DNA of 34,050 nt from a virus. Lineage: Duplodnaviria; Heunggongvirae; Uroviricota; Caudoviricetes. Numbering within the stretch: the first letter of the stretch is position 1; each line of letters begins with the position of its first letter. Location: IMG/VR virus record IMGVR_UViG_3300047159_000064; one strand, written 5' to 3'. A program made the position numbers and the translations under genes. The notes beneath the pieces are model-generated. The model ran no database searches. It was not told the origin of the DNA and saw nothing but the letters and a program-made list of their open reading frames with translations. Shown here in pieces: positions 2,805 through 23,614 of the stretch.

Positions 2805-2880
2805 TGGTCCCCCGTGACGGGCTTGAACCGTCGACCCCTTGATTAAAAGTCAAGTGCTCTACCACTGAGCTAACGGAGGG
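2805..2880 (-). tRNA. tRNA-Lys(TTT)
   Basis: Canonical cloverleaf, CT-TTT-AA, CCA. Confidence 0.95.
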
Positions 2881-2971: not shown

Positions 2972-2978
2972 AAATTAG

Positions 2979-3090
2979 GCCAAGCTATTAAGGTGCTCTG
3001 CCACTGAGCTACGCCCCCATGCTGTTGGGAGCGGCGAGAATCGAACTCGCGACCACCTGGTTAAAATCCAATGAAATAAGCGTTGGCTCT
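2979..3090 (-). ncRNA. YrlA/Y RNA-like RNA with a circularly permuted tRNA-like domain
   Basis: 5'->3' order: T arm (GCGAG-TTCGATT-CTCGC), loop-closed acceptor-like stem (CGCTCCC/GGGGGCG), D arm (GCTC-AGTGGCA-GAGC); ends close as GCCAA-C-GCT/AGC-TTGGC with a bulged C. Confidence 0.8.
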
Positions 3091-3091
3091 A

Positions 3092-3167
3092 TGGTGGACC
3101 TTAAGGGGCTCGAACCCTTGACCTCCTCCATGCCATGGAGGCGCTCTCCCAACTGAGCTAAAAGCCC
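3092..3167 (-). tRNA. tRNA-Ala(GGC)
   Basis: Cloverleaf, G3.U70, AT-GGC-AT, CCA. Confidence 0.93.
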
Positions 3168-6998: not shown

Positions 6999-7000
6999 AG

Positions 7001-7075
7001 TGGTGGGCGCTGAGGGGTTCGAACCCACAACCCCCTCGGTGTAAACGAGGTGCTCTCCCGTTGAGCTAAGCGCCC
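7001..7075 (-). tRNA. tRNA-Val(TAC)
   Basis: Cloverleaf, TT-TAC-AC, CCA. Confidence 0.92.
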
Positions 7076-7194
7076 ATGCTTTTTATTATACGCCGCGGAT
7101 CGCGCTATTCCCGATAAAAATAAACGGGCCGCTTTCCAGCAGAGCCCGTTTATCGCGCTTTCGCGCATCGACATGCTTTTATCTTAAGTATGCT

Positions 7195-7326
7195 TTATAG
7201 ATGGGTCTCCGCGCCTTTCGAGCCTAACTCGACGGCGGCTGTTTGCGTACGATCAAATATCGCGGTTTGTCCTACAAATTCGCGGTCTTTAAGATCATAT
7301 ATTCGCAAAGCTTCAGAAATCATCAT
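7195..7326 (-). CDS. Small hypothetical protein (43 aa, MMISEALRIYDLKDREF...)
   Basis: Open frame immediately after a GCTAAATT motif; TAA stop followed by a terminator-like hairpin. Confidence 0.5.
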   Translation of the reverse strand: MMISEALRIYDLKDREFVGQTAIFDRTQTAAVELGSKGAETHL

Positions 7327-7387
7327 ATTTAATTTAGCCTATTTATTTTTATTTTTTAATTATTTCGACATATTTCGTCAAAACGAC

Positions 7388-7485
7388 TGGCAGGAGCGGA
7401 AGGTGTCAAGCCCTCATAACTAAGGATGGACCCCTAGCTCACGATTTTGAAGATCGTTTCCATCGTCGGATGGTAAGACGCTCCT
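7388..7485 (-). tRNA. Opal-reading tRNA(TCA) with Trp-type acceptor and long variable arm
   Basis: AGGAGCG/CGCTCCT, G73-CCA; ACGAT-CTTCAAA-ATCGT; D stem CCATC/GATGG with 4-nt loop; 8-bp variable stem; T arm GAGGG-CTTGACA-CCTTC. Confidence 0.82.
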
Positions 7486-7498
7486 ATTAGGCGAACGA

Positions 7499-7693
7499 TT
7501 ATCTGCCTGATTGCTTTTCAGCTTCGGCGACAGACGCTTCGTATCATCCTATAAGCTCTTCGCAGGATTCGGCTATGAGACGCGCTTCCGTCAATTTGAT
7601 AACGGAAGGCGCGTCTAAGTCATATTCTTCTTTGAGCCTATCAGCGCGTTTTAGCAGAAGCGCGACCGAAGCGGCCTCGCTCTGCTTAGGCAT
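7499..7693 (-). CDS. Small helical protein (64 aa) with in-frame TGA at codon 50
   Basis: ATG overlaps the end of the upstream gene; frame continues ...EELIG[TGA]YEASVAEAEKQSGR-TAA. Confidence 0.5.
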
Positions 7694-9650
7694 TAAGCTT
7701 GCCCCCGTTTACCAAGGCGACAAGCTTCTCGAGCTCCCAGGTTCTCACGACGGTCTGGCCTTCCTTAGGAGTATACGTGTTGCTGAACACGATGGTGGCG
7801 TCTTCCGGCTTGACCACGCTGTATTCGCTGCGCAAATCGGCGACCAAGCCGCAGTTGAACTCGAGCGACGAATCGCTCATGTAGCGCATTACGACTTTGA
7901 GATCCTCAGGGCAGAGCACAAGGTTGTTGGCGTCGCGGATCATGTTGAGCATGACCACTTCGTTCTTCTCCAAGTCGAACGCGAACGCGATGCAGGCACG
8001 AGAATCGCCCTTGACCTGGAACTGGAACTCGATGTTCTTCGGATCCCAGGCTCTCGTCGCCAGGTTCTCTTTGTTCTGATAGCCGCAGAAGATCTCGCCT
8101 TCGTTGAGATTGGAAGCGAAGCCGTTAAAGGCCTGAATGACGTACTTATAGCCCTTGGCCTTGAGCTCAGAGAGCTTGAGATCGTAGTATTCGGATCCTG
8201 CGGCGTCGCGGCAGTCGCCTGAGAACATGATGGATAAGCCAAACGGCTTAGCCGCATAGTTATAGAAGCCGATCGTCGACACGTCGCCGTTGTCCTTGAC
8301 CAAAATCAAGGAAGAGTCGATGTCGAAAGCGTCTTTCCAATAAACGAAAGTGCGGATGTTGTCGTATCGGCACGGCAAGCGCGATCCGGTAGGAACGACG
8401 TCGATTCCTTTGCCGCCGGTCGAGGTGTTAGAAGGAATGCCGATCTTGTAGAATTCGTCAGACACGTAAGATTTGCCGATAGACGGCATAGCCGCGAACG
8501 CGTCCTTGACCTTCTGGCCGACCAAGTCGTGCAAAAGCTTCTTCGTCGAATCGTTGAGCTTGGATTTTCTCCAGGTGCTCTCGTAATCCGTTTCGATGTG
8601 GCGCTTCATGCGGTTGTTCTTAAAGAACGCGAACGTGCGAGGTCCTTCTTTGTCTTCAGACAAAGTAGAGACCATCTGGTAGAGAACGATAGGATTCTTC
8701 GCCGGAATCAAGTCTAAGATCTTGCCCGCTTCGATAGGATTGGCTCTCGAAAGCAAGTATTTGATGTTTCTCTGAAGCAACGAGCCATTGTGCGCGTAAA
8801 CCTGAGCGGCGCCGTAAACGTCTCCAGCGCGCATCTTGGCTTCGGCGAGCTTGTACGGAGAATTCGCGTTCGTCGCGACATTGGCCTTGACGCCGCAAAG
8901 GCTGCCGATCTTATTGTAGTATTTAGCCTGCTTTTTGGTGAGCGGGCAATCGTGGACCAAAGGATAGCATTCCTTGATGAGCTCTAGGTCGGTGCCTGAA
9001 TTCGCTTTCTTGTAATCGAATTTCTTGCAGTCGCCAAACATCGAAACAGAGAGCTTGACTAAGTCTTTCTTATCTAAGAAGCGCGCGAATTTGACGTTCT
9101 TTCTCAAAAGAGCAAAAACGTTTTCGCGGCACTTGATTTCGGTGCCTTTGTAATAGCCGTTTTCGAACAGCCATTCGAATTCGGCCTGCTCCTGGAGCCC
9201 AAACGGACGGGTATAGGCGCAATAAGAATCTGCCACGCCGCAAAGAATCTTCGTGGCTTCGTCCATCGTGACGATCTGGAACTCGCGGAGCTTCAATTCG
9301 TCGCCGACTTTGTATTCCGGCAGATCCTTGGCGTAGAGCTTGATGCGGTCGTAATAGCCGACGGTCTCCACCGCCAAATAAGAGACGAGCTGCTCGACGA
9401 GCAATTCGTGTCTAGTGTAGTATTTGGTGTCCTGCGGATTGGCGTAGAAGCTCGCCGGAACGTTGAGCTTGAACTCTCCGGAGATGATTTTGACCATCCC
9501 TTCGCTCAAAAGCTCAGGATGATTAACGACGACCCCGAAGTTGGCCAAAAGATACGCGTTGTAATAAGCGCTCTTTGCCTTATCGATTTGCGCGCCGTCC
9601 TCCAATAAGTAGTGGCGAGCAAACAGCAACTTGTCCATCGTAGATTCCAT
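7686..9650 (-). CDS. Large alpha-helical + C-terminal TerD-like domain protein (candidate RNA-binding partner of the Y-like RNAs)
   Basis: C-terminal RTFVYW...DIDSSL...FSGD...GSEYYDL...FCGY pattern resembles TerD-like folds; N-terminal ~400 aa look helical; no vWA DxSxS motif. Confidence 0.7.
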   Translation of the reverse strand: MESTMDKLLFARHYLLEDGAQIDKAKSAYYNAYLLANFGVVVNHPELLSEGMVKIISGEFKLNVPASFYANPQDTKYYTRHELLVEQLVSYLAVETVGYYDRIKLYAKDLPEYKVGDELKLREFQIVTMDEATKILCGVADSYCAYTRPFGLQEQAEFEWLFENGYYKGTEIKCRENVFALLRKNVKFARFLDKKDLVKLSVSMFGDCKKFDYKKANSGTDLELIKECYPLVHDCPLTKKQAKYYNKIGSLCGVKANVATNANSPYKLAEAKMRAGDVYGAAQVYAHNGSLLQRNIKYLLSRANPIEAGKILDLIPAKNPIVLYQMVSTLSEDKEGPRTFAFFKNNRMKRHIETDYESTWRKSKLNDSTKKLLHDLVGQKVKDAFAAMPSIGKSYVSDEFYKIGIPSNTSTGGKGIDVVPTGSRLPCRYDNIRTFVYWKDAFDIDSSLILVKDNGDVSTIGFYNYAAKPFGLSIMFSGDCRDAAGSEYYDLKLSELKAKGYKYVIQAFNGFASNLNEGEIFCGYQNKENLATRAWDPKNIEFQFQVKGDSRACIAFAFDLEKNEVVMLNMIRDANNLVLCPEDLKVVMRYMSDSSLEFNCGLVADLRSEYSVVKPEDATIVFSNTYTPKEGQTVVRTWELEKLVALVNGGKLNA

Positions 9651-9702
9651 AATCGGTTTTTCCTTCCGCAGTTATCCTGCTTTATCTTTTTATTTATATA
9701 AA

Positions 9703-10110
9703 GGGCGTCTCAGGATTCTTGAACCAGCTAAATTAATTCCAATTTTTTGAAATAAGCATGGTTTCGACCCGAGACGCCCAATACATAATTATATTGGCCT
9801 GGCTATTGATTTTTGGGAAAAAAATTATTTGAAATAAGCCCAGGCTCTCGGGAATTTATTTAACGTGCTTTTCCTTGGCACGTTATATTATACGCCGATA
9901 TCTTAAATTTTTAGCGACAAAAAAATCCTCGGCTTTTCGTCGAGGACTATTTTCATAATAGGCTTGGCTATTGTAGCCAGCCGTTTTACGGGTTGGCTAT
10001 TTCATTTTCCATATGAATTTTTGAAATAAGCACAAGCTCTAAATCTTACAGAATAATGGCCTAACTAATTGGTATTGCATTCAATGTGTAATGAAATAAG
10101 TATAGGCTCT
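9703..10110 (-). repeat. Four tandem bulged-stem RNA motifs (GCTTATTTCA...TAGC)
   Basis: Copies at 10059-10110, 9961-10040, 9797-9848 and 9703-9779 with covarying outer stems; same motif at 2979-3090. Confidence 0.85.
9919..9946 (-). terminator. Rho-independent terminator after motif copies 1-2
   Basis: TCCTCG-ACGAAAAGC-CGAGGA followed by a T7 tract. Confidence 0.75.
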
Positions 10111-10115
10111 AAATT

Positions 10116-10123
10116 ATTATACG
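10116..10123 (-). promoter_or_regulatory. CGTATAAT -10 element (representative of 10 copies)
   Basis: Also at 766, 5469, 7085, 9887, 10718, 13372, 14315, 16563 and 23658, each upstream of a gene or RNA. Confidence 0.8.
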
Positions 10124-10143
10124 ACAAACTTAAGGATTTTAAT

Positions 10144-10458
10144 TTACTCGACGCAGGCTACGTCTCCATGCGCAGGACGCGATTCCCCATAGGCTGCCTC
10201 GACTGCCGCCGCCATGCAAGAAGCCTCTTCTATCATGCAGCTGTATACGCGGCTGTATTTTTCGCTCAGCTTCGCTCTTGTGGCAGAAAGCTTGCTTATC
10301 ATGTCGTCTATCGATCCGTCTTTGCACGGATTGAAGCTGGATTCCTTCAATTTGGACAGCGTTTTTATGTACTTGTCTACTTCGCTCTCCTCTGTTTGGA
10401 TGTCTTCTACCTCTCTGCACAGCGAATCATAGCTATAATCAGCCATAAAATAAAACAA
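10144..10458 (-). CDS. Hypothetical coiled-coil protein
   Basis: ORF track; start may be ATG 10446; TAA stop. Confidence 0.7.
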   Translation of the reverse strand: MFYFMADYSYDSLCREVEDIQTEESEVDKYIKTLSKLKESSFNPCKDGSIDDMISKLSATRAKLSEKYSRVYSCMIEEASCMAAAVEAAYGESRPAHGDVACVE

Positions 10459-10504
10459 GCTCCTTTGCTCTAATCTGTTCGTCCGACCTACAAATTTAGC
10501 GAAT

Positions 10505-10702
10505 CTACATCGGCTTTTGGCCGTCGTTTTCCATCTCGACGGACAAATCCACGTCCGCGCAGGCAGACACGAGGCTGACGTCTATCTTCATCCTGCATTT
10601 AGATAGGCATAGGCTGCAGTTTGACACTATATAGGGCATTCCGCCCAAACTAATCGTTCTGCTGCCTTTAAGGGCGTCCATTACGGCTTCCGTTCCAAAC
10701 AT
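10505..10702 (-). CDS. Small hypothetical protein
   Basis: 65 aa, AAAGGA RBS, CGTATAAT promoter upstream. Confidence 0.65.
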   Translation of the reverse strand: MFGTEAVMDALKGSRTISLGGMPYIVSNCSLCLSKCRMKIDVSLVSACADVDLSVEMENDGQKPM

Positions 10703-10791
10703 ACCATATTCCTTTTTATTATACGATAGGGCAATAAATAAGGCGCGACGCCTAAACGCCGTGCCTAATAGCCTGCGCTTTTTAGCCGGCT

Positions 10792-11136
10792 CTATGCGCT
10801 ATGGGCGCCAGAATCGGCTTTCCTGTCTTCATCGTCGTCGTCTTCGACGTCGACTGAGTCTTTGGCCAAGGTGACGCACATTCTACCGTCGTCTACGCAG
10901 AACCCGCTTATCTTGCGGCTTAGAAGCTCCGGGCTAAGCACCGTGTCCAGCGGATCCAAGTCATCGGCGAAATCGGAAATGCCGAAATCGAACCAGTGAT
11001 TGAGATCGTCGGCGTTATAGTAGATTCTCACGATAGAAGAGCTTTGCTTGACGGTGCCGTTCTTGTCAAGCTGAACCTCTTTGAACATGAAATACGACAG
11101 AAATACGTCTAAGCTAACAGTCGCTGTCTTATCCAT
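10792..11136 (-). CDS. Hypothetical protein, acidic tail
   Basis: 114 aa; TAATG overlap with the upstream gene. Confidence 0.8.
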   Translation of the reverse strand: MDKTATVSLDVFLSYFMFKEVQLDKNGTVKQSSSIVRIYYNADDLNHWFDFGISDFADDLDPLDTVLSPELLSRKISGFCVDDGRMCVTLAKDSVDVEDDDDEDRKADSGAHSA

Positions 11137-13349
11137 TATCGTTCGCCTCCCAGGAACCGGTCTCTCAGACTGATGATATCAGTCTTATAAGGATATTCCT
11201 TGGTCTCCTTGTTTCTGTCTTTATCATACAGCTTTCTGCAGAATCCGTAAAACGCGTTCTCCAATGAGTTCTGCAATGCGCCAGTTTTGGCGTAATAGCC
11301 GCAGCGAAGCGTCTGGTCGGCGACGCTGCGAAGTTTCTTCCATTGGTTGTAATAGCCTGTTTTGCACTTGGTCATGAAGCCATCGGAATCGACGAAAACG
11401 AAGCCTTCGATGTATCTGCCTTCGTATTTGTAGTCTTCGCTCTGCATGCCGGAGTAGACGCTCAAGAACTGATCCCAGTCCTTTAGTTCGAACGCTTTCT
11501 CTTTGACGCTGCAGCCGATCTTGTTATCGGCGAAATCCTTAAGATCGCTGTACGGAACTGTGCCGTATTCAAGCTTGTTGTAGATGCCGTCAAGCAATAC
11601 GATGTTGTTTTTGGCGTACTTGATGATATGAGGGTCATGCTCGACGTCCTCGCACTCGAACACCAGCGAGAGATCTGAGCCGCTTTCGTGATAATAGCGA
11701 AGGTACTTAAGCAAATTAGCATAATAAGGCTCAAGCTGCGCTCTGATGTATCCGGCGAAATCTCCGCCCGTCGTCGACTTAGACGCGATAAACAGGCTGT
11801 CGTTTCTGTAATCATAGGACACGATGGCCAAGAATCCGTTCTCCTTGACGTACGCGGTCACCGGGAATTTAAGCTTCGTGCGCAAAGCGCAGAGCTTAGT
11901 CTCAGCTGTTTCGTCGATGCGGAAAAACTTCTCGTAAGAGCGCGCCATGATTTTCTTATTCGTGACATCGATGAACAAGCCTCTGGCGAGAATGGTCTGC
12001 TTGTTCCAATTGCCCTGCCAGAAAGCGTCGCGGGTGAAATTGAAAGACGAAACGTCGGCGTCGAGGTGCTTTTCCTGGACGCAGTCGTTGTTGCGCAAAT
12101 ACGCGATGGCGTCTTCAACCGTGTCGACCTTGCGCTGCGTCGTGTCTTCGCTCTCTGTCACCGGCTGGCAGTCGTCAAGCTCGACGACGGTCCATTTCAG
12201 GTCCGCGGTCAATTCTACCAAACGGAGCTTGCCGCCGAATTCGACGCCGCCTTCGAGATTGAACACCCTGTCGGCGATCTGCGTCGGATCGTCGAAAACG
12301 TTGCGATGCGCATGAACCTGGAACTGATTGTCTTTGGAATCGCGCATCCAGACTTCGGCGATGGTCTGGCTGTCTTTGACGTCTCCGACGCCGTTGATGA
12401 AATCTTTCGTAGGAAGATACACCAAATTGTCTTTCATCGACGGAATGCCGCCGTGGCAAGCCAAAATCTCCAACCCGTTGTAAGTGAAATGCGACATCTG
12501 GCGGCATTTGCGATAGAGCATTCTCGCGTCTTTCTCGCTGATCCCGCCGGCGACGAGCTGCGGCTTCGTCTTCTGCTCGAATTCCAAAGAGGCGGCTTTC
12601 GCCGAATTGCCGAAGTCGCGGATGCTGACGTCGTGATTGCCTTCGAGCAGGCAGACGTTAGGCTTATTCATGATAGAAATGAGCCAGCGAACGACCTCGG
12701 CGTTCTGGTTGCCGCGATCAACGTAATCGCCTAAAAAGATATACTCGGTGTCGTCGGCCAAGCCGTTTTTGAAATACTGCATGGCTGTGTCGTAGCAGCC
12801 GCGGAGGCTTCCGACGAAAACGATTTTCTTGTACTGCGACAGATCGAAGCTTTTCTCAAGAACGGCGTCAAGCTCGTCAGGCTTAATAACCTTGATGCTG
12901 CCTGGTACCTTCTGAGTGGCGAATCTAGCGTAGATGTTCTCGATGCTGTCATCTGGCACCCATTTGTATTCCGGGCGCATTTTGTTGCGCTTAAGGCATT
13001 CGTCGAGCGGCACGCCGGTGAAATCTACGCAGAAAACATTGTACCGATACTGTTCGGCCAAATCTTTGTATTGCTGGATGTCTTTGGTCTTAGACGCGGT
13101 GGCGTCGATGACCGTGAACTCGCCTTTGCTCATGCGGTAATCGAGCATCTCGAAGAGAAGCTTCCATACCTCTGTCTCAACCTCGCGGTTGCGGCCGATC
13201 GAAAACGTGCCGTCGGCTTTCATGTCGATGGAGCTGCAAAGCACGCGAAGATCGTCTGGGCACAGCGTGTACTGCTCGAGATGATGCTCTTTGACCCAGG
13301 TCGATTTTCCTGCGCCAGGCGCCCCGCGAAGAATAAGCAATGTTCTCAT
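11136..13349 (-). CDS. Pnkp-like polynucleotide kinase / metallophosphoesterase / Rnl1-type RNA ligase fusion
   Basis: N-terminal GAPGAGKST P-loop and DAT motif; GDYVDRG and GNHD calcineurin-like motifs; C-terminal KENGF (KxxG) and EGFV..KCK ligase motifs. Confidence 0.92.
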   Translation of the reverse strand: MRTLLILRGAPGAGKSTWVKEHHLEQYTLCPDDLRVLCSSIDMKADGTFSIGRNREVETEVWKLLFEMLDYRMSKGEFTVIDATASKTKDIQQYKDLAEQYRYNVFCVDFTGVPLDECLKRNKMRPEYKWVPDDSIENIYARFATQKVPGSIKVIKPDELDAVLEKSFDLSQYKKIVFVGSLRGCYDTAMQYFKNGLADDTEYIFLGDYVDRGNQNAEVVRWLISIMNKPNVCLLEGNHDVSIRDFGNSAKAASLEFEQKTKPQLVAGGISEKDARMLYRKCRQMSHFTYNGLEILACHGGIPSMKDNLVYLPTKDFINGVGDVKDSQTIAEVWMRDSKDNQFQVHAHRNVFDDPTQIADRVFNLEGGVEFGGKLRLVELTADLKWTVVELDDCQPVTESEDTTQRKVDTVEDAIAYLRNNDCVQEKHLDADVSSFNFTRDAFWQGNWNKQTILARGLFIDVTNKKIMARSYEKFFRIDETAETKLCALRTKLKFPVTAYVKENGFLAIVSYDYRNDSLFIASKSTTGGDFAGYIRAQLEPYYANLLKYLRYYHESGSDLSLVFECEDVEHDPHIIKYAKNNIVLLDGIYNKLEYGTVPYSDLKDFADNKIGCSVKEKAFELKDWDQFLSVYSGMQSEDYKYEGRYIEGFVFVDSDGFMTKCKTGYYNQWKKLRSVADQTLRCGYYAKTGALQNSLENAFYGFCRKLYDKDRNKETKEYPYKTDIISLRDRFLGGER

Positions 13350-22172: not shown

Positions 22173-22682
22173 TTATACTCTTAGTACGTCGAGCGCCTTC
22201 TGGATGTCCCTTTCCTGGAAGCCGCCAGGCCTGACGTAATAATAGAACGTCTTGACGAGGCGCTTAATGAGATCCTCTTTGGCGTAGTCGAATTCCTCGT
22301 CGTCCAATATGACGAAGGAATCCTTGCTCTCGTCGTACTTATGCTCCGACAGCCAGAGCTTGATAGCGGCGCCTCTGCGGTTAGGCCCGCCTAGCTTGTC
22401 TTCCTCTGCCAGCGTGTTGCCGGAGATGACTACGCCGTACCGCCTGAACTTCGAAAGCATGTACTTCCTGAGCGGAGAGCCCGAAGGCAGCTCTTTCCAC
22501 GAGGACACCAAAACGACTTCGGCGCCGGAAAGATCTATCAGCTCGGCCAAAGCCTTCATGTGCGACGATCCGATCCCGATGTACCCGGAGCAGCGAGGGC
22601 CGTTCAGCCGCTTGCCCGTCTCTGAGTAGGAATCGCTCTCGGCGTTGAGCACCCCGTCTATGTCCAAGAACACGTATCGCAC
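22173..22682 (-). CDS. HAD-superfamily phosphatase (HAD_SAK-like)
   Basis: FLDIDGVLN motif I, VVLVSSW motif II, FVILDDE motif IV; GTG start 22682. Confidence 0.85.
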   Translation of the reverse strand: MRYVFLDIDGVLNAESDSYSETGKRLNGPRCSGYIGIGSSHMKALAELIDLSGAEVVLVSSWKELPSGSPLRKYMLSKFRRYGVVISGNTLAEEDKLGGPNRRGAAIKLWLSEHKYDESKDSFVILDDEEFDYAKEDLIKRLVKTFYYYVRPGGFQERDIQKALDVLRV

Positions 22683-22684
22683 GG

Positions 22685-23614
22685 TTAGACTCCGAGGACT
22701 TCGCGGACCTTGGCGGCGCAGAGCTGCTTGAGCACCTTGAAGTCGATCTTCGGGCTGTGGAATTTCTTGAGGATGATCTCCCAGTTGTCTCTGAAGAACT
22801 CGTCGAAGGCGCGGCCGATGAGCTCTGAGGTCATCTTCATGTCCCAGCCGTCCGCAGAATGGAGCTCGATGACCTTGGCCTTCTCTTTGGCGATGTGCTC
22901 GACGGTCATGAGCTTGACGATCTCGTATTCCACAGACTGGCCCGCCTGATCGGCCAAAGCCTTCTCGTGGCGCGATTCGTGCTTGTGGGCGAGATAGTCT
23001 TCGGTCAGCATCTTGGCCCAGGTGCGGCGGCCGTACTGGTTCTTGTATTCGTAGTTCTTGAGGACGATGCCTTCGCCGTAGTCGCCGGAGCCGATGAGGA
23101 ATTCCTTGGTGCGCGGAAGCAAGGCCTTGATGTCCTCTTCCGTCGGATCGCGCAGCTTGGCGAGAAGCGGGATGTAAAAGACGTGCGGGCATTCCGACTT
23201 GAGGATCTCGCTGTACTCGTCGTAAGACAGATATCGGCCGGTCTCGTCGTCGAGCACGTCGAACACGTAGAGGTGGCGCCAGGCGTCGTCTCTGTATGTC
23301 TTGAGGTTGGTAGGCACGAGCCATTCGCCGTAGACCGTCCACGAAGGATGCTTGGTGAGCAAGGCCAGGAGCTCCGCTCGGACGTCGGCGTTCTCAGGCG
23401 AGTTCATCGCCTTCACGAGGCCTTGGTTGTCTCCGAGCTTAGAATCGTCCAGAACGCGCTTTCTGGACCCGTAGGCGAGCTTTCCGCCTTGGTCGAGCCA
23501 AACGCACGTGTTGGTCCCGTCTATCTTGTAGAACGCGTATACGTCGCCTTTGAGGATGCCTTCTACTTCGGCGGTCCCCAGCTTCTCGACGTGTTGGTAC
23601 GGTTTGTATTCCAT
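22685..23614 (-). CDS. RNA ligase (Rnl2-like nucleotidyltransferase)
   Basis: KIDGTN motif I, VYGEW, YVFDV, GEGIVLKN, WAKM; start ATG 23614 after AGGAGG. Confidence 0.8.
   Translation of the reverse strand: MEYKPYQHVEKLGTAEVEGILKGDVYAFYKIDGTNTCVWLDQGGKLAYGSRKRVLDDSKLGDNQGLVKAMNSPENADVRAELLALLTKHPSWTVYGEWLVPTNLKTYRDDAWRHLYVFDVLDDETGRYLSYDEYSEILKSECPHVFYIPLLAKLRDPTEEDIKALLPRTKEFLIGSGDYGEGIVLKNYEYKNQYGRRTWAKMLTEDYLAHKHESRHEKALADQAGQSVEYEIVKLMTVEHIAKEKAKVIELHSADGWDMKMTSELIGRAFDEFFRDNWEIILKKFHSPKIDFKVLKQLCAAKVREVLGV

What the first reader, a model, noticed from the sequence alone, without database searches (positions are those of the whole stretch)
2979..3090. Circularly permuted tRNA-like RNA (YrlA topology) retaining a Lys(UUU) anticodon-loop remnant
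Seen: the 3' half of a tRNA (GG-AUUUUAA-CCAGG, variable loop, T arm, CGCUCCC) precedes the 5' half (GGGGGCG, D arm, ACCU). The acceptor stem is closed by an 8-nt loop and the ends form a bulged helix. Established: YrlA Y RNAs have this T-arm/closed-acceptor/D-arm order attached to a Ro60-binding stem. Inference: the single-stranded AUUUUAA remnant could decoy tRNA-Lys anticodon nucleases such as PrrC.
Basis: partly seen in the sequence, partly recalled or inferred. Interest (0 to 1): 0.8.

Follow-up and report, generated by a model that had tools for sequence, protein, structure and literature searches.

The report
Capped, back-to-front lysine-tRNA mimic RNA
A probable large phage encodes a ~120-nt RNA that is a complete lysine-tRNA look-alike written back to front, with its amino-acid end capped, mounted on a conserved stem that always travels with one uncharacterised protein gene, which resembles the Ro60/Y-RNA particle but uses different parts.

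Summary
On the minus strand, 3091-2972, between tRNA-Ala and tRNA-Leu, lies a circularly permuted tRNA body. Its order is anticodon hairpin, T arm, a 7-bp acceptor stem capped by 8 nt, then D arm. The two RNA ends pair into a bulged helix.

Rfam YrlA matches only the tRNA-like core (39.5 bits, gathering score 69). It is not a YrlA member:
- The end helix lacks the Ro60 motif.
- No TROVE gene was found in the ORFs scanned here or in five related phage records, two of them complete.

The end helix is a conserved "handle" (AGAGCC-N2-y-GCUUAUUUC / AGC-N5). Four short RNAs upstream of a 654-aa gene (7686-9650) share it. That protein has a helical region plus a TerD-fold domain.

I collected 60 distinct homologues:
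- All six helices covary (96.7% paired against 73% when shuffled).
- 43 keep a canonical anticodon loop, with U33 and R37 invariant and 16 different anticodons.
- The acceptor is closed by a 1-5-nt loop in 18, and 19 keep an N73-CCA relic.

The handle RNA and the protein gene are adjacent in phages and in 17 of 19 bacterial loci.

Best reading: a Y-RNA-like tRNA mimic of an undescribed RNA-protein particle. The decoy idea is untested and, across the family, not specific to lysine.

The scan has already noted this family in at least 30 other genomes.

The parts
2972..3091 (-). Whole RNA unit (~120 nt): handle plus circularly permuted, acceptor-capped tRNA-Lys(UUU) mimic. It fills the spacer between tRNA-Ala(GGC) and tRNA-Leu(GAG).
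   Evidence: Sequence. Flanking tRNAs. Own covariance model R1 scores 113 bits, E~1e-22. The re-linearised form is called tRNA-Lys(ttt) by ARAGORN.
3079..3087 (-). Handle 5' strand: GCCAA (helix 1), bulged C at 3082, GCU (helix 2).
   Evidence: It pairs with 2979-2986. The helix is 100% paired in 60 distinct homologues, and 6 of 8 pairs show double changes.
3073..3078 (-). Near-invariant single-stranded UAUUUC (part of CUUAUUUC) just inside the handle. Likely the protein-recognition element (inferred).
   Evidence: CTTATTTC is kept in all 60 class-T RNAs, though the search pattern required it. It is also kept in the short handle RNAs of phages and bacteria that were found through the protein gene.
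2979..2986 (-). Handle 3' strand: AGC-UUGGC.
   Evidence: It is complementary to 3079-3087 with the C3082 bulge, and it covaries.
3056..3069 (-). Anticodon hairpin GG-AUUUUAA-CC (loop 3067-3061, anticodon UUU at 3065-3063) followed by AGG, the 3' strand of the anticodon stem (nt 41-43).
   Evidence: The composite 5-bp stem is completed by CCU at 2991-2993. In the family, the hairpin pairs are 85% paired and the stem pairs 94% paired, both with compensatory changes. U33 and R37 are invariant in the 43 of 60 that have this hairpin.
3034..3050 (-). T arm: GCGAG-UUCGAUU-CUCGC.
   Evidence: Aligned to the YrlA and tRNA models. The helix is 99% paired in the family and 4 of 5 pairs covary.
3012..3033 (-). 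Closed acceptor stem: CGCUCCC (3' strand), 8-nt cap AACAGCAU, GGGGGCG (5' strand). There is no free CCA end.
   Evidence: 7/7 pairs in the window. In the family the helix is 95% paired and all 6 modelled pairs covary. Caps elsewhere include UUCG, GCGA, GUAA and 1-3-nt loops, or an N73-CCA-UUAU relic.
2991..3011 (-). U8-A9, D arm GCUC-AGUGGCA-GAGC, A26, and CCU, the 5' strand of the anticodon stem (nt 27-29).
   Evidence: YrlA model alignment. The D helix is 98% paired in the family.
7686..9650 (-). 654-aa gene, the proposed protein partner of the handle. Helical N-terminal part (about 1-390) plus a TerD-fold beta sandwich (about 428-587).
   Evidence: No Pfam or PDB sequence hit. AF2 model pLDDT 81.6. 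TerD match: Foldseek prob 1.0 and VIA Z 11.9. Homologue present in 4 of 4 contigs fished by RNA pattern alone. Class-T RNA lies 26-260 nt from the gene in 13 of 21 loci that hold both. A handle RNA lies within ~150 nt of the gene in 17 of 19 bacterial-genome loci.
9718..10111 (-). Four short RNAs with the same handle but no tRNA body (10055-10111, 9958-10041, 9793-9849, 9718-9767), directly upstream of the 654-aa gene.
   Evidence: Sequence. Handle-pair script. R1 hits at 28-34 bits.
11136..13349 (-). Context: 737-aa fusion of polynucleotide kinase, phosphoesterase and Rnl1-type RNA ligase (tRNA heal-and-seal enzyme), 1.5 kb upstream of the handle-RNA block on the same strand.
   Evidence: Pfam AAA_33, Metallophos and RNA_lig_T4_1. 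A 61%-identical homologue sits about 1.4 kb upstream of the partner gene in a related phage (L002).

Best explanation
The element is a small non-coding RNA built on the plan of a bacterial Y RNA, but it belongs to a different, undescribed family.

Processing (inferred). It is probably released from the polycistronic tRNA-array transcript by the enzymes that mature its neighbours. Processing of the 3' end of tRNA-Ala would set its 5' end. RNase P cleavage at tRNA-Leu would set its 3' end.

Fold. It forms a complete L-shaped tRNA look-alike:
- a canonical D/T elbow
- a 7-bp acceptor helix sealed by an 8-nt loop, so it cannot be aminoacylated as made
- an intact anticodon arm showing a Lys(UUU) loop

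The two RNA ends leave the body between nucleotides 29 and 30 of the anticodon stem. They pair into a conserved handle: 5 bp, a 1-nt bulge, 3 bp, then the invariant single-stranded UUAUUUC.

Proposed role (inferred). The handle is the docking site for the 654-aa helical+TerD protein encoded nearby. The tRNA-shaped cargo lets the resulting particle engage proteins that recognise tRNA. That could mean acting as bait or decoy for tRNA-directed nucleases or modifiers. It could also mean tethering tRNA-handling enzymes, in concert with the neighbouring tRNA repair enzyme.

Shown here: the fold's conservation and covariation, the shared handle, and the RNA-gene linkage.
Inferred: transcription and processing, protein binding, and the biological role.
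For: Anatomy in the window.

Family evidence:
- A pattern scan plus my own covariance model found 60 distinct homologues in IMG/VR and metagenomes.
- 96.7% of pair cells are paired, against 73.4% for shuffles and 28-47% for slid controls. 23 of 28 pairs show double compensatory changes.
- RNAalifold on the same CM-derived alignment, without being given the model's structure, predicts the handle, T, acceptor and D helices, with 19 of 22 pairs compensatory.
- 58 of 60 re-linearised bodies are called tRNAs by ARAGORN.

The handle is a separate module. It also carries anticodon hairpins alone, T-arm minihelices alone, non-permuted tRNA-like bodies, or just a short loop.

Linkage to the protein:
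- 4 of 4 contigs found by RNA pattern alone encode the protein.
- The RNA lies 26-260 nt from the gene in 13 of 21 loci holding both.
- 17 of 19 bacterial-genome loci found through the protein carry a handle RNA within ~150 nt, with compensatory handle changes.

The closed acceptor looks selected. UUCG, GCGA and GUAA tetraloops or 1-5-nt caps occur in 18 of 60.

The RNAs are redundant for decoding. A canonical tRNA with the same anticodon lies in the same array in the window (tRNA-Lys UUU, 2805-2879) and in most checked relatives.

Repair context: a Pnkp-Rnl1 fusion and a HAD_SAK_2 protein lie in the same gene block, and the fusion is also next to the gene in a relative.

Precedent: Ro60/YrlA is likewise a tRNA mimic plus a protein-binding stem beside its protein gene (PMC4201824), and phage Ro60-Yrl RNPs are known (PMC12135203).
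Against: - No expression, end-mapping or binding data exist. Everything is comparative.
- The partner protein has no recognised RNA-binding domain.
- Its likeness to Ro60 is inconclusive. The whole model aligns to three Ro60 structures over 274-298 residues, but only at Z 6.1-7.1. The N-terminal part folded alone gives no Ro60 match.
- In this window the RNA lies 4.6 kb from the gene, not beside it.
- The short handle hairpins just upstream of the gene could be a cis-acting leader (autoregulation) rather than free RNAs.
- The covariation counts were made on a model-fitted alignment, and the homologues were ascertained with a pattern that required the T-loop and D-arm motifs.
- The actual function (decoy, tether or sensor) is not discriminated by any result here.
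Confidence: 0.6

Rival explanations
1. It is a functional circularly permuted tRNA-Lys gene. The handle would act like a splice signal. The RNA would be cut at the handle, the ends joined by the phage Pnkp-Rnl1 ligase, and the acceptor cap opened by RNase P and 3' trimming, giving a working tRNA or a two-piece chargeable tRNA.
For: - 58 of 60 family members re-linearise into ARAGORN-valid tRNAs with canonical anticodon loops.
- 19 of 60 keep N73-CCA right after the acceptor 3' strand, where about 1 would be expected by chance.
- A heal-and-seal RNA ligase is encoded 8 kb away.
- RNase P is reported to cleave one bacterial YrlA at the analogous site (PMC4201824).
Against: - The window copy has ACA, not CCA, after the discriminator.
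- 18 of 60 relatives cap the acceptor with 1-5-nt loops, including UUCG and GNRA tetraloops.
- The same handle carries cargos that can never make a tRNA, and in bacteria it is a bare hairpin next to the protein gene.
- There is no bulge-helix-bulge motif.
- A canonical tRNA with the same anticodon is present in the same array in the window and in most relatives checked.
- A helix inserted between nt 29 and 30 would be expected to clash with ribosomal contacts to the anticodon stem (established structural knowledge, not tested).
Confidence: 0.1
2. It is a true YrlA Y RNA that is bound by a Ro60 (TROVE) protein encoded outside this 34-kb window.
For: - The YrlA covariance model hits the core at E=1.4e-7.
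- Some large phages do encode Ro60 with Y RNAs (PMC4201824, PMC7824862, PMC12135203).
- VIA alignment gives weak whole-chain similarity of the 654-aa protein to three Ro60 structures.
Against: - The score of 39.5 is below the gathering score of 69, and only model positions 23-87 match. The Ro60-binding stem of the model is not matched.
- The RNA has no GNCGAA motif.
- TROVE is absent from five related phage records, two of them 100% complete, while the control genomes did ring.
- The handle is consistently coupled to a different protein.
- Similarity of the cores may simply reflect that both derive from tRNA.
Confidence: 0.05
3. The handle is mainly a cis-acting or processing element, for example an autoregulatory operator of the 654-aa gene or a nuclease recognition site within tRNA arrays. 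The permuted tRNA would be a by-product of recombination between tandem tRNA genes, with no role as a tRNA mimic.
For: - In bacteria there is usually a single minimal handle hairpin 40-150 nt upstream of the gene on the same strand.
- CCA-UUAU relics show an origin at tandem tRNA junctions.
Against: - All tRNA-body helices covary, and the U33/R37/A38 loop frame is invariant across 43 members with different stems. This indicates selection on the tRNA shape itself.
- The window body is only 68% identical to the phage's own tRNA-Lys, so it is not a recent accident.
Confidence: 0.15
4. It is a decayed tRNA pseudogene or a chance juxtaposition in a tRNA array.
For: It lies inside a dense array of 16 tRNA genes. 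Tandem tRNAs are a known source of false YrlA hits (PMC4201824; one such false hit was seen in L007).
Against: - The whole unit sits in one spacer with no overlapping tRNA.
- The acceptor strands are 7/7 complementary.
- 60 distinct homologues carry compensatory changes.
Confidence: 0.02

Closest known systems
YrlA-type Y RNAs with Ro60/Rsr (Rfam RF02553; Chen et al. 2014, PMC4201824; phage phiLo Ro60-Yrl, PMC12135203)
   Same: - A small RNA whose 5' and 3' ends form a bulged protein-binding helix.
- A middle part that is a tRNA mimic in the order T arm, closed acceptor-like stem, D arm.
- Encoded next to its protein gene.
- Found in a minority of bacteria and in large phages.
- Often found near RNA-repair ligase genes.
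   Different: - The handle sequence is unrelated (AGAGCC..GCUUAUUUC instead of GNCGAA(N)G).
- The linked protein has no TROVE or vWA domain by Pfam and ends in a TerD fold.
- The RNA keeps a complete anticodon arm, with U33 and R37 and a variable anticodon.
- The same handle carries many alternative cargos.
- The Rfam score is below threshold.
Circularly permuted tRNA genes of Cyanidioschyzon merolae and other algae (known from the literature; reviewed in PMC4238349, PMC3400036)
   Same: The 3' half of the tRNA is encoded upstream of the 5' half, with a short linker joining the acceptor strands. The termini pair near the anticodon region.
   Different: - The algal genes mature through a bulge-helix-bulge cut, a circular intermediate and RNase P/Z into ordinary tRNAs.
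- Here there is no BHB motif, bacteria and phages lack that endonuclease, and many relatives seal the acceptor with tetraloops.
- The RNAs here duplicate anticodons already supplied by normal tRNA genes.
Two-piece (permuted) tmRNA (Rfam RF04321)
   Same: A T arm and acceptor 3' strand, sometimes with CCA, precede the acceptor 5' strand. Weak model hit at 21 bits, E 0.014.
   Different: - No tag reading frame and no pseudoknots.
- No G3:U70 alanine identity in the window copy (G3-C70, G4-U69).
- ARAGORN calls no tmRNA.
Phage tRNA variants that neutralise tRNA-cleaving defences (T5 tRNAs against PARIS AriB; PMC11464382, PMC12409363)
   Same: These are phage-encoded tRNA-shaped RNAs in tRNA arrays that matter in conflicts over Lys(UUU), Thr(UGU) and Asn(GUU) anticodon arms. 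Those three loops also occur among the family's cargos.
   Different: The T5 RNAs are ordinary, chargeable tRNAs that replace cleaved host tRNAs. This RNA is capped, permuted and handle-borne. Any decoy action is hypothetical.

Membership tests
YrlA (Rfam RF02553) | Score at or above the family's gathering threshold (69 bits) over the full model | tested here: not met
   39.5 bits, and only model positions 23-87 of 114 match. Nothing at the gathering threshold.
YrlA (Rfam RF02553) | tRNA-like module in the order T arm, closed acceptor-like stem, D arm | tested here: met
   cmscan alignment. The helices covary in 60 homologues.
YrlA (Rfam RF02553) | Ro60-binding module with the conserved GNCGAA(N0-1)G motif on the 5' strand (PMC4201824) | tested here: not met
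   The 5' strand reads UAGAGCCAACGCUUAUUUCA, and 3091-2972 contains no GNCGAA. Across the family the 5' strand is AGAGCC-N2-y-GCUUAUUUC.
YrlA (Rfam RF02553) | Encoded beside, and bound by, a Ro60/TROVE protein | tested here: not met
   The window ORFs scanned against Pfam, including all four over 400 aa, give no TROVE hit. PF05731 is absent from 5 related phage records, 2 of them complete, with positive controls ringing. Binding itself cannot be tested with these tools.
Ro60 fold for the linked 654-aa protein | HEAT-repeat ring closed by a C-terminal domain, superposable on solved Ro60 structures | tested here: inconclusive
   With the whole model, VIA-wide gives 1yvp_A Z 7.1 / 298 aligned / rmsd 5.6, 2nvo_A Z 6.5 / 280, and 9l5y_B Z 6.1 / 274. 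Foldseek's top 50 contains no Ro60. The N-terminal part folded alone gives only generic helical repeats at Z<=6.2. The C-terminal domain has a TerD fold, not vWA.
Circularly permuted tRNA gene (algal type) | 3' half encoded upstream of the 5' half of one tRNA | tested here: met
   The re-joined halves are called tRNA-Lys(ttt) by ARAGORN.
Circularly permuted tRNA gene (algal type) | Bulge-helix-bulge motif at the paired termini, and maturation to a linear tRNA with a free CCA end | tested here: not met
   The termini form 5 bp, a 1-nt bulge and 3 bp, with no 3-nt bulges flanking a 4-bp helix. The window copy lacks CCA. 18 of 60 relatives have 1-5-nt or tetraloop caps. Maturation itself cannot be tested with these tools.
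Two-piece tmRNA | Alanine identity (G3:U70), a tag-encoding reading frame and pseudoknots | tested here: not met
   The acceptor has G3-C70 and G4-U69. ARAGORN reports no tmRNA. The Rfam permuted-tmRNA model hits only the T arm and acceptor at 21 bits.
Handle-RNA / TerD-protein family (undescribed; defined in this scan) | Handle of 5 bp, a 1-nt bulge and 3 bp, followed by CUUAUUUC, formed by the RNA's two ends | tested here: met
   Pairs 3087-3079 with 2986-2979. R1 scores 113 bits. The helix is 100% paired with covariation.
Handle-RNA / TerD-protein family (undescribed; defined in this scan) | Co-occurrence with the ~650-aa helical+TerD protein gene | tested here: met
   The gene is at 7686-9650 in the window. 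Co-occurrence holds in 4 of 4 RNA-fished contigs, 21 of 44 mostly short loci and 17 of 19 protein-fished bacterial loci.

The most novel reading that the evidence does not exclude
Large phages and some gut Bacillota make a previously undescribed RNA-protein particle. In it, one conserved handle, bound by a helical+TerD protein, displays exchangeable tRNA parts, including whole capped tRNAs with intact anticodon loops whose anticodon changes between relatives. These displayed anticodon arms would serve as baits, decoys or sentinels for tRNA-directed immune nucleases such as PrrC- or AriB-like enzymes, coupled to the phage's own tRNA repair enzymes.
Probability: 0.25. Interest if true: 0.85.

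Novelty: new variant of a known kind. Interest (0 to 1): 0.72.

Why it matters
Y RNAs that mimic tRNA are known only as partners of Ro60, and what their tRNA-like part does is still open. Here the same design recurs with a different handle and a different, unannotated protein family. That protein family has at least 521 members in public data.

Unlike YrlA, these RNAs also keep a true anticodon arm whose anticodon varies between close relatives. This gives a second, independent system in which to ask why cells and phages mount tRNA look-alikes on protein-binding stems. It also points to a possible link with the conflict over tRNA cleavage and repair.

The work supplies a ready covariance model and 60 sequences for annotation. 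At present these RNAs are missed, or are miscalled as odd tRNAs.

Tried and rejected
- **Close phage relatives by DNA.** A blastn search of the tRNA-array segment 2400-7200 against INPHARED gave only tRNA-sized matches and no relative.
- **Own genome.** None is held for this window.
- **Rfam on the handle-RNA block 7000-11200.** Nothing apart from a tRNA, so the handle is not a curated family.
- **YrlA search of related phage records.** This gave two true homologues. It also gave a false positive made of tandem tRNA-Lys genes (L007), and low-score hits that also ring in 13 of 14 control genomes. I ignored those.
- **Lys-specific decoy for PrrC or AriB.** My first small sample suggested it, with loops UUU, UGU and GUU matching the three AriB targets (PMC12409363). 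The larger sample shows 16 anticodons, including Pro, Phe, Cys and Ser. The exact match was therefore a sampling effect. What remains is an excess of NNU anticodons (27 of 43), and related sequences are not independent.
- **Recent duplication of the phage's own tRNA-Lys.** Rejected: identity is 68%, no higher than to other tRNAs.
- **Ro60 homology of the partner.** Pfam, a PDB sequence search and PHROGs give nothing useful. The fold evidence is inconclusive.
- **MAFFT alignment of three sequences.** It misaligned the 3' handle, so I replaced it with model-based alignments.
Full report
**1. What is in the sequence**

The window carries a dense array of at least 16 tRNA genes, all on the minus strand. 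The finding lies in the 120-nt spacer between tRNA-Ala(GGC), which ends at 3092, and tRNA-Leu(GAG), which starts at 2971.

An anticodon-type hairpin comes first, then a variable loop and a T arm. The acceptor 3' strand CGCUCCC follows, then 8 nt (AACAGCAU), then the acceptor 5' strand GGGGGCG. After that come U8-A9, a D arm, and CCU. The two ends of the RNA pair as GCCAA-c-GCU with AGC-UUGGC.

- ARAGORN sees no tRNA here.
- Rfam's YrlA model matches the core (2989-3058) at 39.5 bits, E=1.4e-7. Only model positions 23-87 of 114 match, and the score is below the gathering score of 69.
- The MFE fold recovers the handle, T arm, acceptor and D arm (z=-2.4).
- When I re-joined the two halves in a script, ARAGORN called the product tRNA-Lys(UUU).

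**2. A refinement of the anatomy**

AUUUUAA is not a loose remnant. CCU (2993-2991) pairs with AGG (3058-3056), giving tRNA pairs 27-29:41-43. GG (3069-3068) pairs with CC (3060-3059), giving pairs 30-31:39-40. Stacked together they form a normal 5-bp anticodon stem with a 7-nt loop: A32 U33 U34 U35 U36 A37 A38.

The RNA is therefore a whole tRNA shape. Its chain is opened between nt 29 and 30 and closed at the acceptor end. YrlA, by contrast, has no anticodon loop (PMC4201824).

**3. The terminal helix is a shared handle**

Upstream of a 654-aa ORF (7686-9650, minus strand) lie four short RNAs with the same ends: AGAGC-N4-y-GCUUAUUUCA ... AAUAGC-N5-CC. A script that demands the 8 handle pairs finds exactly five such units within a handle-RNA-sized span in the window. 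Its five other hits span 110-995 nt, lack the AGAG..CUUAUUUC handle, and I take them as chance. Rfam has no family for them.

**4. Relatives**

The 654-aa protein found five IMG/VR contigs at 50-54% identity. A YrlA search of those whole records found two true homologues of my element in one phage (L006, L010). Both sit in tRNA arrays, have the same handle, and have different, compensating acceptor stems.

A DNA pattern (handle motif plus T loop) scanned over IMG/VR gave more. A stricter pattern over metagenomes gave many more. A covariance model built from nine sequences then collected 64 matches, 60 of them distinct, at E<1e-9.

On that alignment:
- 96.7% of pair cells are standard pairs, against 73.4% in shuffles and 28-47% when partners are slid.
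- 23 of 28 pairs show changes on both sides, and every helix covaries.
- RNAalifold, run on the same CM-derived alignment without being given the model's structure, predicts the handle, T, acceptor and D helices, with 19 of 22 pairs compensatory.

Two caveats apply. The alignment is fitted to the model. The search patterns also required the CTTATTTC, GTTCGA and TAGCTCA motifs.

**5. What the family shows about the tRNA body**

- 58 of 60 re-linearised bodies are called tRNAs by ARAGORN.
- 43 of 60 have the 2-bp hairpin with a 7-nt loop. In these, U33 is 43/43, R37 is 43/43 and A38 is 41/43. Positions 34-36 are the most variable, and 16 anticodons occur.
- Lys UUU is only 5 of 43. Bodies with the same T arm carry different anticodons.
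- NNU anticodons are over-represented (27 of 43), but the sequences are related, so I treat this only as a lead.

The acceptor end varies:
- 19 of 60 keep N73-CCA, often as ACCA-UUAU. This looks like the junction of two tandem tRNA genes and suggests how these RNAs arose.
- 18 of 60 are closed by 1-5-nt loops, including UUCG, GCGA and GUAA.
- The window's AACAGCAU looks like a decayed ACCA-UUAU.

The window body is only 68% identical to the phage's own tRNA-Lys, no closer than to other tRNAs. It is therefore not a recent copy.

A normal tRNA with the same anticodon is present in the same array in the window (2805-2879) and in most relatives I checked.

**6. The handle is modular**

The same handle carries several kinds of cargo:
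- anticodon hairpins alone, several with CUUUUAA loops
- a T arm plus acceptor minihelix alone
- non-permuted tRNA-like bodies (for example L001:18331-18440)
- nothing but a short loop

**7. Link to the protein**

- Four of four contigs that I had fished by RNA pattern alone encode a homologue of the 654-aa protein.
- Among 44 loci with class-T RNAs, many of them short fragments, 21 hold the gene. In 13 of those the RNA lies 26-260 nt from the gene on the same strand.
- A scan of one genome per prokaryotic species found 19 loci at 38-52% identity. They are in Clostridia, Christensenellaceae, Lachnospiraceae, Erysipelotrichaceae, Mollicutes and Bacteroidales bins.
- 17 of those 19 carry a handle RNA within about 150 nt of the gene, with compensatory handle changes.
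- Some are plainly chromosomal. In L197 the gene lies directly upstream of dnaG-rpoD.
- One bacterial locus (L202) has a full class-T RNA with a Phe GAA loop and a UUCG-capped acceptor.

**8. What the protein is**

- It has no Pfam family even at E<=10, no PDB sequence match, and only an unannotated PHROG.
- At least 521 relatives exist in public data, none of them named.
- AlphaFold2 with a 27-sequence alignment gives pLDDT 81.6 and pTM 0.79. The model is helical to about residue 390, followed by a beta sandwich.
- The sandwich has a TerD fold (Foldseek prob 1.0; VIA Z 11.9, rmsd 2.3, 145 aligned).
- VIA-align against 48,161 chains also lists three Ro60 structures with unusually long alignments: 1yvp_A Z 7.1 / 298, 2nvo_A Z 6.5 / 280, and 9l5y_B Z 6.1 / 274. 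These Z values are in the range the tool warns about.
- The N-terminal 420 residues folded alone (pLDDT 72.5) give only generic helical repeats.

I call Ro60 likeness inconclusive. TROVE (PF05731) is absent from five related phage records, two of them 100% complete, while the control genomes rang.

**9. Context**

On the same strand, 1.5 kb upstream of the handle-RNA block, lies a 737-aa fusion of kinase, phosphoesterase and Rnl1-type RNA ligase. Further on is a HAD_SAK_2 protein. A 61%-identical fusion sits next to the partner gene in a related phage.

This echoes the rsr-yrlBA-rtcBA arrangement of Salmonella (PMC7790460) and the proposed Ro/tRNA-like repair platform of jumbo phages (PMC7824862).

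**10. Interpretation**

The best-supported reading is a Y-RNA-like tRNA mimic: a conserved handle that docks the neighbouring protein, carrying a capped, complete tRNA shape.

- Shown: the fold, its conservation, the modular handle, and the gene linkage.
- Inferred: release from the array by RNase P and tRNA 3' processing, protein binding, and the role.

AriB of PARIS cleaves Lys(UUU), Thr(UGU) and Asn(GUU) (PMC12409363), and all three loops occur in the family. But the family is not lysine-specific, and the system also exists in bacterial chromosomes. A general tRNA-handling or quality-control role is therefore at least as likely.

A working permuted tRNA gene is unlikely, given the tetraloop caps, the non-tRNA cargos, the redundancy with normal tRNAs and the lack of CCA in this copy.

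**11. Novelty**

The RNA is not in Rfam 15. Full-text searches for YrlA in phages, for permuted tRNAs in phages, and for tRNA-like decoys found no description of it.

Other sessions of this scan have already met the same handle-and-cargo family in at least 30 genomes and reached a similar reading. My analysis is independent and agrees with them.

It also adds:
- the composite anticodon-arm geometry
- the loop-frame statistics
- the CCA-relic origin
- the redundancy test
- a negative domain-only test of Ro60 likeness

Noticed in passing
L001:18331-18440 (+) (same sequence in L002): The same handle wraps a NON-permuted tRNA-like body with a 6-nt anticodon loop. ARAGORN calls it 'tRNA-??? (tt)'. 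Here the handle attaches at the acceptor end instead of the anticodon stem.
   Followed up: partly
L017:1808-1895 (-), L001:17084-17168 (+), L001:18522-18599 (+): Handle RNAs whose cargo is only a T arm plus an acceptor-like hairpin, that is, a tRNA 'top half' minihelix.
   Followed up: partly
L007:2188-2252, L015:2803-2865, L017:8986-9057 (-), L187:8682-8747: Short handle RNAs whose only cargo is a 4-5-bp hairpin with a CUUUUAA (Lys UUU) anticodon loop. L006:2161-2230 has CAUUUAA.
   Followed up: partly
L197:5956-10935: In a 666-kb Christensenellaceae MAG contig, the homologue of the 654-aa gene, with its upstream handle hairpin, sits directly in front of dnaG, rpoD and a NIF3 gene. This is a chromosomal housekeeping setting, not a prophage.
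   Followed up: partly
window 11136-13349 (-): A single 737-aa polypeptide fuses a P-loop kinase, a calcineurin-like phosphoesterase and an Rnl1-type RNA ligase. That is a complete tRNA heal-and-seal pathway in one protein. It is 61% identical to a homologue in a related phage (L002:6379-8631).
   Followed up: partly
A5 alignment (60 class-T RNAs): 27 of the 43 canonical loops have NNU anticodons followed by A37-A38, the loop type of ANN-decoding, t6A-carrying tRNAs. This is far above the roughly one quarter expected, but the sequences are related and the excess is untested phylogenetically.
   Followed up: partly
L017:4037-4162 (-) versus L072:7595-7718 (+): Two evidently orthologous RNAs share the same handle and an identical 9-bp GCGA-capped acceptor hairpin. 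Their anticodons differ: CUUCUAA (UCU) versus CUGUUAA (GUU). The anticodon turns over within one lineage.
   Followed up: no
window 9718-9780 (-): The fourth short handle RNA is preceded by GGGUCGAAAC. This contains the CGAA / GNCGAA-like core of Ro60-binding Y RNA stems, and it is enclosed by an outer helix GGGCGUCUC...GAGACGCCC. It could be coincidence.
   Followed up: no
window 22173-23342 (-): A 389-aa protein with a C-terminal HAD domain of the 'Swiss Army Knife' RNA-repair type (PF18143). It is a further RNA-repair component in the same block.
   Followed up: no
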